Virus record (IMG/VR): IMGVR_UViG_2711768101_000011 | DNA length: 16,377 nt | Source: a virus | Lineage: Duplodnaviria; Heunggongvirae; Uroviricota; Caudoviricetes | Direction: 5' to 3' (one strand) | In this document: positions 4,739 to 15,664 of the stretch, piece by piece | Layout: the number at the start of each line of letters is the position of its first letter | Numbering within the stretch: position 1 is the stretch's first letter | Notes under the pieces: model-generated | Told to the model about the DNA's origin: nothing | Database searches by the model: none | What the model saw: the letters and a program-made list of their open reading frames with translations, nothing else | Translations under genes and position numbers: made by a program

Positions 4739-5154
4739 CTAAGAAAATCTTGATAAATATTGGTGCGGAGGCACACCAAAATATCCTCTAAAAACACTTA
4801 CAAAATATGATGCATTGTCATACCCGCATATTCCCGCCACCTTTCCGACAGTATGGTTACTGTAGATCAATAATCTTTGCGCCATCATCATTCGTTCTTC
4901 AAGAATTAATTTACTAAACGATATTCCTTCGTCTTTTAATTTTCTTTTTAACAAACTCTCGCTCATATATAATCTTGAAGATATATCACAAAGTCTCCAT
5001 GACGCTGAGATATCCGAGTGAATAATAGCCTTAACTTTACAACCTAAGCTATTAAGACTTCCGAACAAAAAACTTTGCACTATTTTCTCTGAAGATAAGA
5101 CAGCAAGACATGCAAGTGATATTTGATTTCTAACTACATCCACGGTTTTGCTAT
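4739..5154 (-). pseudogene. AraC-family regulator (AppY/EnvY-like), C-terminal fragment separated from its N-terminus by the IS5 insertion
   Basis: Host-derived part of ORF 4739-5320 carries the AraC-type HTH region (...GICGYDNASYFVSVFRGYFGVPPHQY); the first 55 codons of that ORF are IS sequence. Confidence 0.7.
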
Positions 5155-6350
<1,196 letters not shown>

Positions 6351-6652
6351 CTATCACAATTCAAGCATGCAACCAAGTTCTTTAACAATGAAAAATCTTC
6401 ACATTCTACTATCAAGTATGACGGATAAAACCTTCTTACAGAAAAAGGTGAGAGTGTGTAGTTTTTAAAGAAATCATTAACTGTTTTCTCCTCAACATCT
6501 ACGATCATTAGATGATCTGTATTTGACGAAAAAAGATCTTTTAAATTGTATTCAATGAGGACATCATTTCCTTTTTTAAACAAAATATCTTCTTTACCAA
6601 TTCGGACACCAAACGAGTTCAACACCAAAATGATAGAACATATGTATGGCAT
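6351..6652 (-). pseudogene. AraC-family regulator (AppY/EnvY-like), N-terminal fragment
   Basis: MPYICSIILVLNSFGVRIGKEDILFKKG... resembles the AppY N-terminus; joining this fragment to 4739-5154 after removing the IS and one CTAT copy restores one continuous frame of about 240 aa (frame arithmetic done by hand). Confidence 0.65.
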
Positions 6653-11917: not shown

Positions 11918-12601
11918 TCATTCCTGGCCTTCTTTACCGTAGTGGAGTTGACCAATTTTGATTAGAGGGCGTCCCTGAGATTTGCGGTGTAGATTGGTAT
12001 CGCGCAGTGAATACACGCAGCCACAATATTCCTGCTGATAGAATTGTTCGCGCTTGCTGATTTCAATCATGCGGGAAGAGCCGCCCTGCTTTCGCCAGTT
12101 ATAATCCCAGTACACCATGCCCGGATAATACGCGACGGCTCGCCGTCCACAGTCGTTAACCTGCTGCATATTTTTCCAGCGTGAAATGCCCAGTGAGCTA
12201 CTGATCACACTGAAACCATTTTCAGCGGCATACAGCGCAGTCCGCTCAAAACGCATGTCAAAACACATGGTACAACGGATCCCTCGTTCAGGCTCCCATT
12301 CCATTCCTTTGGCTCGCTCAAACCAGTTGTCTGTGTCGTAATCAGCATCAATAAATGGCACGCCGTGTTGTTTAGCAAAGCGAATATTCTCATCCTTACG
12401 AATTAAATACTCTTTCTGAGGATGAATGTTCGGGTTGTAGAAAAAGATGGTGTAGTCGATTCCCGAGGCCTGAAGCGCCTCCATCACTTCACCGGAACAT
12501 GGAGCACAGCAAGAGTGCAGTAATAGTTTTTTTGCCCCGTTTGGGAGCTCCAATTTGGGGCGTTTGAAATCAGCAACAGTCATAAATGTGTTTATGAGGT
12601 T
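11918..12601 (-). CDS. DUF208 / QueH-like Fe-S protein (epoxyqueuosine-reductase-like)
   Basis: [13 protein letters not shown] motif near the N-terminus plus CTMC and YCGC Cys motifs, consistent with the DUF208 (QueH) family as I remember it; start uncertain (12601 or 12580), no clear Shine-Dalgarno. Confidence 0.6.
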
Positions 12602-12636: not shown

Positions 12637-12870
12637 CTATCGGAAACAGATGTCTAAATCTGGTAATGTCTGCTTTTGATGCAAAGCAGACAACCACGGC
12701 AGCGCACGAAAATCAGCGATAATGTCGGGATTAATAATCGGGTGACGTCCATCACATAGCGAATGTTCCTCTTTCCTGATATCGCTAAATATCGACCATT
12801 CGTCATTCTTATCGAACCAGAGCATGCGACTGCCACAGCACATGTCGAGAATGGTAGCCGATGTACTCAC
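12637..12870 (-). CDS. Hypothetical small Cys-rich protein (77 aa)
   Basis: GTG start overlapping the upstream stop (GTGA) with GGGAGG Shine-Dalgarno inside the upstream gene; motif [14 protein letters not shown] loosely resembles a SAM-binding motif I but the protein is too short for a methyltransferase. Confidence 0.4.
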
Positions 12871-13289
12871 AGCATCACCTCCCGATAATTCCCCTGATAA
12901 AACGTCAGAACACGCTGCATAACTTCGCTCTTCCGGCACTCGCGACAGATTATGTTTAGACGACTGTCGTAGCGACGTATTTCTCCATCAGGTAATGACC
13001 AGATAAGGTCCGGATCAACCACAGCAGGTTTCTTCACCTTTGCCCTCGAGAGTTTTTTGCGGGCGTTTTGCCAGTCCTTACGCGCCTGTTCAGACGGGAA
13101 TAACCCGTAGCCGGAGTTGTATACATCGCCACTGGCTACCAGCTCTCTGGCAAGAACGCTCATCAGATATCTAGTCGCACCTGTTTTAGCTTCCAGTTGC
13201 CGTAACGTCTCACGACCGCTCTGGCGCACGAGTTCCACCACTTGCCCTTTAATTTTTTCCCGCTCTTCTTGTGTAAAAACTTTTGCCAC
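12867..13289 (-). CDS. Hypothetical phage early protein (140 aa)
   Basis: GTG start with strong AAGGGGGAG Shine-Dalgarno; Lys/Arg-rich; no family recognised. Confidence 0.5.
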   Translation of the reverse strand: MAKVFTQEEREKIKGQVVELVRQSGRETLRQLEAKTGATRYLMSVLARELVASGDVYNSGYGLFPSEQARKDWQNARKKLSRAKVKKPAVVDPDLIWSLPDGEIRRYDSRLNIICRECRKSEVMQRVLTFYQGNYREVML

Positions 13290-13329
13290 AACTCCCCCTT
13301 AAAATTACCTCATGACCTGAAATCAACAC

Positions 13330-14295
13330 TTATCCTCTGAAACCAGGCGGAATTTCTGTATCCGGTTCAGAAATATGATTAACACAACGCTGTACAGGTG
13401 AACGTCCCAGGCGGATGACCAGTTCGTCCCATTTTTCGCGGAGCTTTGACGGGCTCATGATGTTTTTTACCCAGAATGGATCTCGCTGAACCCGACCAAA
13501 CATTTCGCAAATTTGTCTGTGGCTTCTGCCATCCAGCATCCGCATTGTGCGCACGTCATTGGCCCAGGCAGTCCAGTTAGGCTCTTTTGGTCGCATGATC
13601 TCGCCATCATCACTGGCTGCCTGTTCGTAGAGACCCACGATCCGCCCCCAGATCCACTGCGCACACGCCAAATCCTCCCTGCTACCCCACTGGCGTTTTT
13701 TCGCACTAAACACAACCGCGTCGGAGTTCCGGGTTAAAAAATCCTGTTCAGTCGTCTGCGGGTCCGGTTGCGAAGCTTCCGGACGAAAAGTGTTTTTATT
13801 CTCTGTAGTAATCTCTGTTGTATTCTCTGTAAGATCATCAGGCCATTTTGACCCGATGACATTGGATCGTTTTGAACCAATGGAGCGTTTCATTTTGACC
13901 TCTTCCATCGTGTCATTTTGACCTGATGGAGCGGCGCATTTTGAACCGATGGATTCGTTCAATTTGCCACCATCTAAAAGCTCGCTCCCATAGTTGATCG
14001 TGTAGAAATTGGTCATATCGCGCTTTGATTTATTGAGCTTTTCACAACGCAAAAGCCCCAGCGTTTTCAGACTTGCAAACGCGCGCTTTAACGTTGACTC
14101 TGACCAGAATGGGAACTGTTCCAGCCATTGTTCCGTTGTGTTATAAATCCAGCGAACACCATCACATTCCATACCGGAGTTGGTATCTCTCAACCAGTAG
14201 TGCAGTTGTTGCAAAACAATGGCTTCGTTTAAGCCGATTTTCATTGCCAGCTGCGTGTTTATAACCAGTGGGCGTTCAGCAAAAAGAAGACTCAT
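13330..14295 (-). CDS. Phage replication initiation protein (replisome organizer, O-like / YdaU-like) with internal origin iterons
   Basis: N-terminus MSLLFAERPLVINTQLAMKIGLNEAIVLQQLHYWL... is replisome-organiser-like; direct DNA repeats inside the gene correspond to SIGSK peptide repeats; start set to ATG at 14295. Confidence 0.65.
   Translation of the reverse strand: MSLLFAERPLVINTQLAMKIGLNEAIVLQQLHYWLRDTNSGMECDGVRWIYNTTEQWLEQFPFWSESTLKRAFASLKTLGLLRCEKLNKSKRDMTNFYTINYGSELLDGGKLNESIGSKCAAPSGQNDTMEEVKMKRSIGSKRSNVIGSKWPDDLTENTTEITTENKNTFRPEASQPDPQTTEQDFLTRNSDAVVFSAKKRQWGSREDLACAQWIWGRIVGLYEQAASDDGEIMRPKEPNWTAWANDVRTMRMLDGRSHRQICEMFGRVQRDPFWVKNIMSPSKLREKWDELVIRLGRSPVQRCVNHISEPDTEIPPGFRG
13798..13975. 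repeat. Putative origin of replication iterons inside the O-like gene
   Basis: Five to six CATTTTGACC-like repeats at about 23-bp spacing (13844, 13869, 13891, 13914, 13937, 13960), preceded by three copies of TCTCTGT at 11-12-bp spacing (about 13798-13830). Confidence 0.6.
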
Positions 14296-14797
14296 AATTC
14301 CATCCAGCTTTTTGTTGGTATTGCTGTCGATACGCAAGCTTGAAAGCAATTGCTTTTTCTATAAGTTCGTCAGTTTCACGATCTACAACGGCAGGATCTG
14401 CAAAAAGCAGTCCGGATTCCACCACATCGCCATATTCTTTATTTAACCCGGCGATCATGTACGTAATACTTTTTCCATCACTGATCTCACGATACAACCT
14501 GAAATCACTAATCCGGATAGCCTCCATAATTGCAGGCACTAGCGCTGTGAACTTTTCACGCTTATCCCTGGTGTCGATAGCCTTCCAGCGTTCGAATATC
14601 TTCACTCGATTAACGCTAAGCGCTCGCTGATCAACCGCGCCACCTTCATATGTGACACGCTGAACATCGATGTTCGGGCGCTCTTTCAAAGCCCAGAATG
14701 CTTCAGTGATTAATATCGTCGCCTGCTCCTGTGTCATTCCTGGTCGACATATCCAGGCATCCAGAGCCTCACGAGCCTGTTCAGGAGTGATTTTCAT
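14276..14797 (-). CDS. Hypothetical early protein (173 aa) in the cII/YdaT position
   Basis: ATG at 14797 lies 17 nt inside the 3' end of dicC; its stop lies 20 nt inside the start of the O-like gene; no confident family call. Confidence 0.45.
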   Translation of the reverse strand: MKITPEQAREALDAWICRPGMTQEQATILITEAFWALKERPNIDVQRVTYEGGAVDQRALSVNRVKIFERWKAIDTRDKREKFTALVPAIMEAIRISDFRLYREISDGKSITYMIAGLNKEYGDVVESGLLFADPAVVDRETDELIEKAIAFKLAYRQQYQQKAGWNYESSFC

Positions 14798-15008
14798 TGT
14801 TCAACCGCCCCGCCCGCTTCGTCTTACGATATTCGTCATAAACTTTGGGATCATACTGAAGCTCCCCGCCAGATGCCTCCTGTAGACGCATCGCGCGACC
14901 TTCAGGAACCAGTATCCCCCAAGCAGCAACACTTGCCAGTCTCACTCCTGCGGCATTGGCAAGCTTTGTTTTGCTGCCAAAAAAAGTAATTGCGTCAACT
15001 TTAAGCAT
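14781..15008 (-). CDS. dicC: Cro-like regulator DicC
   Basis: MLKVDAITFFGSKTKLANAAGVRLAS...EGRAMRLQEASGGELQYDPKVYDEYRKTKRAGRLNNENHS is near-identical to DicC over its C-terminal half from memory; GAGGGGG Shine-Dalgarno; divergent from dicA. Confidence 0.8.
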   Translation of the reverse strand: MLKVDAITFFGSKTKLANAAGVRLASVAAWGILVPEGRAMRLQEASGGELQYDPKVYDEYRKTKRAGRLNNENHS

Positions 15009-15020
15009 CAAAGCCCCCTC

Positions 15021-15040
15021 TTGTTAGACTTTTCTAACAT
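15021..15040. promoter_or_regulatory. Operator-like palindrome in the dicC-dicA intergenic region
   Basis: TGTTAGA-CTTT-TCTAACA perfect 7-bp inverted repeat between the divergent repressor and cro-like genes. Confidence 0.45.
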
Positions 15041-15088
15041 TATTGTGCGCGGGATACCTAAGTCAAGAAAAATTAGAATTACCTAACT

Positions 15089-15496
15089 ATGGATACAAGA
15101 ACCCTAGGCCAGCGAGTTCTGGCGCGACGAAAAGAATTACGCTTAACACAACGAGAAGCTGCGCGCCTCGCTGGAGTTGCTCACGTCACAATTTCACAAT
15201 GGGAAAGAGACGAAACCCAGCCAGTCGGAAAACGATTGTTTGCTTTAGCGGATGCTCTGAAGTGCTCACCTACATGGCTAATGTTTGGTGACGAAGACAA
15301 GGCACCAGTGCCTGCACAAGAACTTCATGTGGAAACAGAGCTAACTCCCAACCACAAAGAATTGATCGAATTATTCGATGCTCTTCCATCTTCCGAGCAG
15401 GAAGCCTTGCTGTCTGAAATGCGCGCAAGAGTAGAAAACTTCAACAAACTCTTCGAAGAAATGCTTAAAGCGCGTAAAAATAAATCAATAAAATAA
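15089..15496 (+). CDS. dicA: Prophage repressor DicA (XRE-family HTH)
   Basis: 135 aa; HTH region LTQREAARLAGVAHVTISQWE and C-terminal MRARVENFNKLFEEMLKARKN closely resemble DicA from memory. Confidence 0.85.
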   Translation: MDTRTLGQRVLARRKELRLTQREAARLAGVAHVTISQWERDETQPVGKRLFALADALKCSPTWLMFGDEDKAPVPAQELHVETELTPNHKELIELFDALPSSEQEALLSEMRARVENFNKLFEEMLKARKNKSIK

Positions 15497-15531
15497 CATT
15501 CTTTTCAAGTGATTAGTTGCGCCCACTCTTT

Positions 15532-15551
15532 TTGTTAGATCAATCTAACAA
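15532..15551. promoter_or_regulatory. Second operator-like palindrome downstream of dicA, upstream of the ydfA-like gene
   Basis: TTGTTAGA-TCAA-TCTAACAA perfect 8-bp inverted repeat, same half-site as at 15021-15040; a degenerate third copy TGTTAGG-TTAT-TCTAAAT at 15570-15587. Confidence 0.45.
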
Positions 15552-15664
15552 AAAACACTTGCCTCTCATGTTAGGTTATTCTAAATTACTTTCCATCAAG
15601 ACACCGCACGGTGTTCTCAGCAAACAGTTCCGCGACCCCGGCGTTAAGGGGAAATGAGGTCAGC

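What the first reader, a model, noticed from the sequence alone, without database searches (positions are those of the whole stretch)
14276..15011. Gene in the cII/YdaT position overlaps both dicC and the replication gene
The 173-aa ORF starts 17 nt inside the end of dicC and ends 20 nt inside the start of the O-like gene, so the early operon is tightly coupled. Its position after the cro-like gene corresponds to cII in lambda or YdaT in Rac, which is reported to be toxic when expressed, but the sequence resemblance to either is weak.
Basis: inference. Interest (0 to 1): 0.4.

Follow-up and report, generated by a model that had tools for sequence, protein, structure and literature searches.

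The report
Intact YdaT (CII-analogue) gene of Qin-type prophage
The 173-codon gene between the cro-like dicC and the replication gene of this E. coli Qin-type prophage is a real, conserved gene of the known YdaT family of phage regulators that do the job of lambda CII; it is present and so annotated in about half of complete E. coli genomes, so it is ordinary.

Summary
A 173-aa ORF (14276-14797, minus strand) overlaps the dicC-like cro gene by 17 nt and the O-like replication gene by 20 nt. RefSeq and phage records annotate the same coordinates.

The gene is under purifying selection (dN/dS about 0.1). It matches Pfam YdaT_toxin above its curated cut-off and PHROG 163 "CII-like transcriptional activator" at 9e-41. 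A profile of its family hits the solved YdaT structures 8bt1 and 3c4r at about 1e-27, and they are the top four fold matches of an AlphaFold model (pLDDT 86).

It is not a homologue of lambda CII, and nothing suggests a toxin-antitoxin toxin. K-12 ydfX is its truncated remnant, already called the Qin YdaT homologue in the literature.

Most likely mechanism: a YdaT-type tetrameric HTH regulator made from the PR-like operon. It would bind an inverted repeat across its own start codon and switch on a reverse promoter that feeds the dicA repressor.

A diverged "YdaT-box" (TTGAAC-aATGaa-AATCAC, 14787-14804) sits in the same register as the footprinted Rac box, inside the dicC overlap. The overlaps are specific to this lineage, not a family trait.

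Modest new details are the variant box, an altered recognition helix and an extra C-terminal helix. Interest is low.

The parts
14276..14797 (-). ydaT-like gene, 173 aa (WP_000705360.1), the CII functional analogue of this Qin-type prophage
   Evidence: The ORF is. It matches Pfam PF06254 at 27.6 bits against a cut-off of 21 and PHROG 163 at 8.7e-41. The family profile hits 8bt1 and 3c4r, and these are the top fold matches. dN/dS is about 0.1. RefSeq names it 'toxin YdaT family protein'.
14781..15008 (-). dicC-like cro gene, 75 aa from the ATG at 15008 (a TTG at 15011 is the alternative start)
   Evidence: It matches NCBIfam DicC at 1.9e-49 over 1-75 of 75. Pfam P22_Cro covers residues 3-58, so the overlapped tail lies outside the folded domain.
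14781..14797 (-). 17-nt overlap of the dicC 3' end with the ydaT 5' end
   Evidence: Seen. It is identical in all relatives from the E. coli group that were examined. Other YdaT loci have overlaps of 4, 7 or 20 nt, or none.
14787..14804 (-). Candidate YdaT-box, TTGAAC-aATGaa-AATCAC, straddling the ydaT start codon
   Evidence: It matches TTGATT-N6-AATCAA at 9 of 12 positions. It sits in the same register (-7 relative to the ATG) as the footprinted Rac box ATGATT-cATGaa-AATCAA (PMC11879457). Six other YdaT loci carry the box in that register at 10-11 of 12. Binding was not tested.
14276..14295 (-). 20-nt overlap of the ydaT 3' end with the start of the O-like gene
   Evidence: Seen. It encodes the YdaT tail, residues 166-173, which have pLDDT below 50 and vary among relatives. 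PPompW phages carry a different replication gene and overlap by 29 nt.
13330..14295 (-). O-like replication initiator gene, 321 aa, with internal iterons (13836-13967)
   Evidence: It matches PHROG 391 'replication initiation O-like' at 1.4e-91.
15089..15496 (+). dicA-type repressor gene, 135 aa, divergent from the operon and the expected target of YdaT-dependent establishment transcription
   Evidence: It matches NCBIfam DicA at 2.7e-67 and Pfam HTH_3.
15039..15066 (-). PR-like sigma-70 promoter, TTGACT-16-AATAAT, driving dicC, ydaT and the O-like gene
   Evidence: It was the only promoter-like site in the scan of 13200-15600, matching 10 of 12 positions. It is a consensus match only.

Best explanation
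This is the intact YdaT-family regulator of a Qin-type lambdoid prophage, the functional counterpart of lambda CII.

It is transcribed from the PR-like promoter as the second gene of the operon, after dicC and before the O-like replication gene. Its weak Shine-Dalgarno region and its start codon, which lies 14 nt before the dicC stop codon, suggest that its translation is coupled to that of dicC.

The protein has an N-terminal POU-like helix-turn-helix domain with the family's invariant Arg-Trp in the recognition helix. C-terminal helices follow that would form the oligomer.

By analogy with the Rac and CP-933P proteins, it binds an inverted repeat across its own start codon (TTGAAC-N6-AATCAC, 14787-14804). 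From there it activates a weak reverse promoter inside or beside dicC. That transcript runs antisense through dicC into dicA, which favours establishment or maintenance of repression.

Shown here: the gene is real and conserved, it belongs to the family, it has the fold, it sits in the expected context, and a box-like sequence lies in the canonical register. Inferred only: DNA binding, the identity of the activated promoter, translational coupling, and any toxicity.
For: Family membership:
- Pfam YdaT_toxin scores above its gathering cut-off.
- PHROG 163 'CII-like transcriptional activator' matches at 8.7e-41 over residues 1-155.
- The profile of 27 family members, with this protein as first row, hits 8bt1 at 2.6e-27 and 3c4r at 3.6e-26.

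Fold:
- The AlphaFold model has pLDDT 86.3.
- Its four best PDB matches are all YdaT chains, at probability 1.00.
- The model has a long loop (residues 37-56) between the helices at 23-36 and 57-73, as described for YdaT (PMC9986795).

Conserved residues: N63, R70, L86 and P88 are invariant and W71 nearly so. R70-W71 correspond to Rac R57-W58 and CP-933P R60, which are needed for DNA binding (PMC11879457, PMC9986795).

Context: the order of divergent repressor, cro/YdaS-like gene and YdaT is seen in all ten loci with enough flanking sequence.

Box: a YdaT-box at register -7 straddling the ATG is found in Rac and in six other divergent loci. The window has a 9 of 12 version in that register, and it is the best match within -200 to +150 of the start.

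Selection: dN/dS is 0.08-0.12.

Function of relatives: YdaT activates a reverse promoter for the repressor gene in CP-933P (PMC8630535) and in Rac (PMC11879457).
Against: - The window's box is a poor palindrome, with only 3 of 6 positions symmetric.
- Window-wide, matches to the canonical box with up to 3 mismatches are not above chance: 23 found against 16.8 expected.
- The right half of the box and its spacer encode the conserved Met-Lys-Ile, so part of the similarity could reflect protein homology alone.
- No sigma-70-like promoter was found on the plus strand inside dicC or ydaT, even with relaxed criteria. This is expected for an activator-dependent promoter, but it is not positive evidence.
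- The predicted C-terminal region has two helices (111-130 and 135-163) where CP-933P YdaT has one long helix. A tetramer therefore cannot be assumed.
- Pairwise identity to the characterised proteins is low, 26-30% in the fold alignments.
Confidence: 0.75

Rival explanations
1. It is the toxin of a YdaS/YdaT-type toxin-antitoxin pair, as the Pfam and NCBI names say, with dicC as the antitoxin.
For: The family is named 'YdaT_toxin' and 'toxin YdaT family protein'. Induced Rac YdaT causes filamentation and cell death (PMC5700377, PMC11879457).
Against: The model's only confident structural matches are the YdaT DNA-binding regulators. The gene lies in a complete lambdoid immunity and replication module, not a two-gene addiction cassette. 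The CP-933P homologue was not toxic, and its authors reject the toxin-antitoxin reading (PMC8630535). Rac toxicity is explained by misregulation of host genes such as rcsA (PMC11879457).
Confidence: 0.07
2. It is a YdaT-family DNA-binding protein whose main role here is to repress or autoregulate the dicC-ydaT-O operon. Sitting on its own start codon, it could block elongation or translation. It could also regulate host genes. It would not be a CII-like activator of repressor synthesis.
For: The box covers the ydaT ribosome-binding region and start codon. Rac YdaT also binds the PydaST promoter region and the host rcsA promoter (PMC11879457). The structural paper calls YdaT a repressor equivalent (PMC9986795). 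No reverse promoter could be recognised here.
Against: In both tested relatives, the measured effect of the box near the ydaT start was activation of a reverse promoter. Expression from the forward promoter was hardly changed (PMC11879457, PMC8630535).
Confidence: 0.15
3. It is a decaying, non-functional remnant in a cryptic prophage, as ydfX is in K-12.
For: The prophage in the window is damaged by IS elements and pseudogenes. Truncated copies are common: K-12 ydfX is 96 aa, a Shigella copy is 55 aa, and many fragments appear.
Against: The window copy is full length. It is identical to the copy in BL21, REL606 and other strains and 97-98% identical to copies in complete phage genome records. 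The frame is under purifying selection, with dN/dS about 0.1.
Confidence: 0.03

Closest known systems
YdaT of cryptic prophage CP-933P, E. coli O157:H7 (PDB 8bt1; close relative 3c4r)
   Same: Both belong to the same Pfam family and share the fold, a POU-like HTH domain with a long alpha2-alpha3 loop and the conserved Arg in the recognition helix. Both sit after the cro-like gene and before the replication genes. The expected role is the same: activating a PRE-like promoter for the repressor operon (PMC8630535).
   Different: Identity is only about 28-30%. The window protein is 173 aa and is predicted to end in two helices rather than one 29-residue helix. Its recognition helix reads NRVKIFERW rather than RNTQKIFRW. 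The cognate site, if it is 14787-14804, has the half-site TGAAC on one side. The ydaS and ydaT genes of this type do not overlap in the CP-933P-like locus L024.
YdaT of the Rac prophage, E. coli K-12 (b1358)
   Same: It belongs to the same family (alignment). Its YdaT-box straddles the ydaT start codon in the same register, with the ATG at spacer positions 2-4 (PMC11879457). It lies in a divergent repressor, cro-like gene, ydaT, replication module.
   Different: BLAST finds only a 29-residue match. The Rac protein is 140 aa. The Rac genes are separated by 22 and 12 nt and do not overlap. Rac toxicity and host rcsA control are shown only for the Rac protein.
YdfX of the Qin prophage, E. coli K-12 (b1568)
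   Same: It is 98% identical over residues 1-93 and has the same 17-nt overlap with dicC. The literature already calls it the Qin YdaT homologue (PMC11879457).
   Different: YdfX is a 96-aa truncation. It lacks the end of the DNA-binding domain and all the C-terminal helices, and the K-12 replication gene is deleted. The window carries the intact ancestral form.
Lambda CII (Pfam Phage_CII)
   Same: It occupies the same slot in the early-right operon and is a tetrameric HTH activator of the establishment promoter. Its binding site also lies at the cro/cII boundary.
   Different: No sequence-family match was found. Lambda CII recognises the direct repeat TTGC-N6-TTGC, and that repeat is absent at this junction. 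YdaT has a closed 222 tetramer suited to inverted repeats (PMC9986795).

Membership tests
YdaT family (Pfam PF06254, PHROG 163) | Profile match above the curated threshold | tested here: met
   PF06254 scores 27.6 bits against a gathering cut-off of 21, E 4.2e-6. PHROG 163 matches at E 8.7e-41 over residues 1-155.
YdaT family (Pfam PF06254, PHROG 163) | Homology to the experimentally characterised, solved YdaT proteins | tested here: met
   The family profile A4 hits 8bt1 at 2.6e-27 and 3c4r at 3.6e-26, and nothing else at E <= 1. The single sequence alone is marginal, at 0.046-0.066.
YdaT family (Pfam PF06254, PHROG 163) | N-terminal POU-like HTH domain with an unusually long alpha2-alpha3 loop | tested here: met
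   In the AlphaFold model (pLDDT 86.3), helices at 23-36 and 57-73 are separated by a 20-residue loop. The top four Foldseek PDB hits are YdaT chains at probability 1.00, with TM up to 0.65. This rests on a prediction, not an experiment.
YdaT family (Pfam PF06254, PHROG 163) | Conserved Arg (with the adjacent Trp) in recognition helix alpha3 | tested here: met
   R70 is invariant and W71 is at least 90% conserved in alignments of 27 and 31 sequences that include Rac YdaT. These residues correspond to Rac R57/W58 and CP-933P R60 (PMC11879457, PMC9986795).
YdaT family (Pfam PF06254, PHROG 163) | Long C-terminal helix forming an antiparallel four-helix bundle (tetramer) | tested here: inconclusive
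   The model predicts two C-terminal helices (111-130 and 135-163) joined by a short turn. Only a monomer could be modelled, so the oligomeric state is unknown.
YdaT family (Pfam PF06254, PHROG 163) | Gene lies after a cro/YdaS-like gene, divergent from a repressor, upstream of replication genes | tested here: met
   The window and its identical records show this order, as do phages, seven diverse loci and Rac.
YdaT family (Pfam PF06254, PHROG 163) | Cognate inverted repeat TTGATT-N6-AATCAA at the ydaS/ydaT boundary | tested here: inconclusive
   TTGAAC-aATGaa-AATCAC at 14787-14804 matches 9 of 12 positions in the canonical register but is only 3 of 6 palindromic. Window-wide matches are at chance level. 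No second copy exists.
YdaT family (Pfam PF06254, PHROG 163) | Binds that DNA and activates a reverse promoter for the repressor gene | not testable with these tools
   This needs EMSA or footprinting and reporter assays. It is known only for CP-933P and Rac (PMC8630535, PMC9986795, PMC11879457).
Lambda CII family (Pfam Phage_CII) | Sequence-profile match to Phage_CII | tested here: not met
   The Pfam scan at E <= 1 returned only YdaT_toxin.
Lambda CII family (Pfam Phage_CII) | Direct-repeat TTGC-N6-TTGC site at the cro/cII junction | tested here: not met
   A scan for direct repeats of 5-6 nt at 4-7 nt spacing in 14600-15020 found only GAGCC, AGCCT and TCCTG pairs and no TTGC repeat.
Type II toxin-antitoxin toxin | Toxin fold or enzymatic domain, in a self-contained two-gene addiction cassette | tested here: not met
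   The only confident structural matches are the YdaT HTH regulators. The gene is part of a dicA / dicC-ydaT-O immunity and replication module. Growth inhibition itself was not testable.

The most novel reading that the evidence does not exclude
The Qin-type YdaT and its Citrobacter-type cousins may form a distinct specificity class within the family. They would have a changed recognition helix (NR[VI][KN]IF[EQ]RW instead of NxxQ[QN][IL]F(x)RW), a changed half-site (TGAAC instead of TGATT) and an added C-terminal helix that may alter the oligomer.

In this lineage the operator would be written into a segment that also encodes the DicC tail and the YdaT start. One 18-bp stretch would then carry three functions: two reading frames and a regulator site. 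The CII-analogue bound there could physically gate its own translation and the translation of the replication gene downstream.
Probability: 0.3. Interest if true: 0.35.

Novelty: already known. Interest (0 to 1): 0.15.

Why it matters
The finding has little importance by itself. It confirms that the gene after dicC in intact Qin-type prophages is the CII-analogue YdaT. These prophages include the ones in the laboratory B strains BL21(DE3) and REL606. It also confirms that K-12 ydfX is the broken remnant of this gene.

There are two practical points. First, the database name 'toxin' is misleading for this gene. Second, B-strain and many clinical E. coli carry an intact, uncharacterised YdaT paralogue next to an intact dicA/dicC switch. 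The Rac example shows such a protein could affect host genes if derepressed.

The diverged box and recognition helix give a simple natural pair for studying how YdaT operator specificity evolves.

Tried and rejected
1. The canonical CP-933P operator was searched across the whole window with up to 3 mismatches. It gave 23 hits against 16.8 expected, which is not significant as a window-wide signal. The hit at the ydaT start became meaningful only after the register comparison with other loci.

2. A second copy of the window's own box was sought, for example in the dicA-dicC intergenic region as in Rac. Only chance-level 3-mismatch hits appeared, and none lay in 15010-15090.

3. A degenerate family pattern, YTGAWY-N6-RWTCAR, gave zero matches because the window's right half ends in C.

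4. A cluster of TGAACA hexamers was noted at -6, +14 and +131 from the ATG. The last lies within the palindrome GAACATCGATGTTC at 14662-14675. By my estimate, some hexamer would occur three times in such a stretch by chance about 15% of the time. Only the -6 copy is conserved in distant relatives. I kept this as an unexplained detail, not as evidence.

5. A sigma-70 promoter search on the plus strand of 14640-15090, for a PRE analogue, found nothing inside dicC or ydaT.

6. NCBIfam has no model that matches the protein.

The narrower alignment gave 9 loci.

9. The idea that overlap with both neighbours is a family trait was rejected. Rac, L019, L020, L023 and L024 have no overlaps (L021 only abuts the next gene), and the others have different lengths.

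Full report
**What is there**

The window is 100% identical over its whole length to a Qin-type lambdoid prophage in the chromosome of E. coli strain YJ6. The stretch 13300-15500 is also identical in BL21(DE3), REL606, E. coli C and other strains.

On the minus strand, the ORF listing and the sequence show three genes:
- a dicC-like gene at 14781-15008 (or 15011 if the upstream TTG is used);
- a 173-aa ORF at 14276-14797;
- an O-like gene whose ATG at 14295 follows GGATGGA.

RefSeq and two phage records annotate the same boundaries.

The neighbours are identified securely:
- DicC: NCBIfam 1.9e-49, and Pfam P22_Cro over residues 3-58.
- DicA, divergent, at 15089-15496: NCBIfam 2.7e-67.
- An O-like initiator: PHROG 391 at 1.4e-91.

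**Is it a real gene?**

Yes. Against five relatives with synonymous divergence of 0.11-0.50, dN/dS is 0.08-0.12. Full-length 173-aa relatives at 84-96% identity stand for protein clusters of more than a thousand member sequences each.

The gene is found in 2706 of 5426 complete E. coli genomes, with at least 80% coverage in 2119 of them. There it is annotated 'toxin YdaT family protein'.

**What is it?**

Several lines of evidence agree.
- Pfam YdaT_toxin matches above its curated cut-off, 27.6 against 21 bits.
- PHROG 163 'CII-like transcriptional activator' matches at 8.7e-41 over residues 1-155.
- Pairwise similarity to characterised proteins is weak. It is 0.05-0.07 against PDB chains and a 29-residue match to Rac YdaT.
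- A search of 1.8 billion cluster representatives found 80 relatives.
- A 27-sequence family profile hits only two PDB sequences, the CP-933P YdaT (8bt1, 2.6e-27) and its relative 3c4r (3.6e-26).
- An AlphaFold model built on that alignment has pLDDT 86.3. Its four best Foldseek matches in the PDB are all YdaT chains at probability 1.00, and the next hits have E above 1.
- The model shows the family's hallmark, a long loop (residues 37-56) between the two HTH helices. R70 is invariant across the family alignment and W71 is at least 90% conserved.
- These residues correspond to the Arg/Trp shown to be needed for DNA binding in Rac and proposed for CP-933P (PMC11879457, PMC9986795).

There is no match to lambda CII's Pfam family. 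No TTGC-N6-TTGC direct repeat is present at the junction.

**Context in relatives**

In every locus with enough flank, the order is divergent repressor, cro/YdaS-like gene, then YdaT.

The overlaps are not a family feature.
- The 17-nt overlap is identical in all relatives from the E. coli group.
- PPompW phages carry another replication gene and overlap it by 29 nt.
- Citrobacter-type cousins overlap the upstream gene by 4 or 7 nt and not the downstream one.
- One metagenomic locus has overlaps of 20 and 14 nt.
- Rac and several others have none.

Both overlaps here fall in unstructured tails. The DicC residues concerned lie beyond the P22_Cro domain. The last eight YdaT residues have pLDDT below 50 and vary among relatives.

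**How it most likely works**

Published work shows that CP-933P YdaT activates a promoter between ydaS and ydaT that feeds the repressor operon (PMC8630535). It binds TTGATT-N6-AATCAA as a tetramer (PMC9986795).

Rac YdaT binds ATGATT-cATGaa-AATCAA across its own start codon. From there it activates a reverse promoter in ydaS about 29-fold (PMC11879457).

I compared the sequence around the ydaT start in 13 loci. Rac and six other divergent loci carry the box at 10-11 of 12 in the same register: left half at -7 to -2, and the ATG at spacer positions 2-4.

The window has TTGAAC-aATGaa-AATCAC (14787-14804) in that register. It matches 9 of 12 positions and is the best match within -200 to +150 of the start.

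The variant left half, TGAAC, is shared with the Citrobacter and MAG cousins. It co-occurs with a changed recognition helix, NR[VI][KN]IF[EQ]RW rather than NxxQ[QN][IL]F(x)RW. This amounts to one evolutionary event and is only suggestive.

The box lies inside the dicC overlap. The same 18 bp therefore encodes DicC residues L-N-N-E-N-H, the ydaT start and M-K-I-T, and the putative operator.

The caveats are as follows.
- The box is a poor palindrome, 3 of 6.
- Its right half is confounded by the conserved Met-Lys-Ile coding.
- Window-wide matches are at chance level.
- I could not recognise the reverse promoter.

Translational coupling to dicC is inferred from the overlap and from the G-rich but poor Shine-Dalgarno region.

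**Toxicity**

Induced Rac YdaT causes filamentation and death (PMC5700377, PMC11879457). The CP-933P protein does not, and its authors reject a toxin-antitoxin role (PMC8630535). Nothing here allows a prediction for this paralogue.

**Novelty**

The family, its role, the box at the start codon and the statement that Qin's YdfX is a YdaT homologue are all published (PMC11879457).

K-12 ydfX is 98% identical to residues 1-93 of this protein and keeps the 17-nt overlap. The window therefore simply carries the intact form.

The details not described elsewhere are the second C-terminal helix (135-163), the variant box and the variant recognition helix. They are modest and untested.

**Verdict**

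The choice between cII and YdaT resolves to YdaT. The gene is already known, and interest is low.

Noticed in passing
window 13797-13967 (inside the O-like gene): An iteron-like array lies within the replication gene: about six copies of a roughly 23-nt repeat (CATTTTGAMCnGATGG core) at 23-24 nt spacing, preceded by three 12-nt repeats (TATTCTCTGTAG). It looks like an origin embedded in the initiator gene, as in lambda O. The protein shows matching IGSK repeats.
   Followed up: partly
window 15051-15089: The only plus-strand sigma-70-like site near dicA is GGGATA-17-TAGAAT (15051-15079). Its -10 element ends 9 nt before the dicA ATG at 15089, so the dicA mRNA from it would have almost no leader. 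This resembles lambda cI from PRM and paaR2 of CP-933P (PMC8630535).
   Followed up: no
window 15023-15037 and 15073-15087: An imperfect inverted repeat, GTTAGACTTTTCTAA / TTAGAATTACCTAAC, flanks the divergent dicC and dicA promoters. These are probably the DicA/DicC operators.
   Followed up: no
L005 5347-5637 (E. coli K-12 MG1655 ydfX): K-12 ydfX (96 aa) is the N-terminal 93 residues of this gene at 98% identity, followed by a deletion that removed the rest of ydaT and the replication gene. The 17-nt overlap with dicC is retained.
   Followed up: yes
window 14661-14803: Three of the window's 13 TGAACA/TGTTCA hexamers fall within 143 bp at the 5' end of ydaT. One of them lies within the palindrome GAACATCGATGTTC at 14662-14675. 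The significance is doubtful, and it could be a secondary regulator site.
   Followed up: partly
window 11918-12583 and about 12685-12870: The prophage carries an epoxyqueuosine reductase QueH gene and a truncated methyltransferase gene between DUF977 and hokD, in place of the relBE genes of K-12 Qin (annotation of the identical record).
   Followed up: no
window about 4739-6652: An IS5-like ISKpn26 element is inserted into an AraC/HTH-type regulator gene and splits it into two pseudogene fragments (annotation of the identical record).
   Followed up: no
L015 3484-3552 (PPompW phages) compared with window 14276-14317: The mosaic junction between alternative replication modules lies inside the last 12 or so codons of ydaT. 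PPompW YdaT is 89% identical over residues 1-161. It then diverges completely and ends 10 residues later, overlapping its own replication gene by 29 nt.
   Followed up: partly
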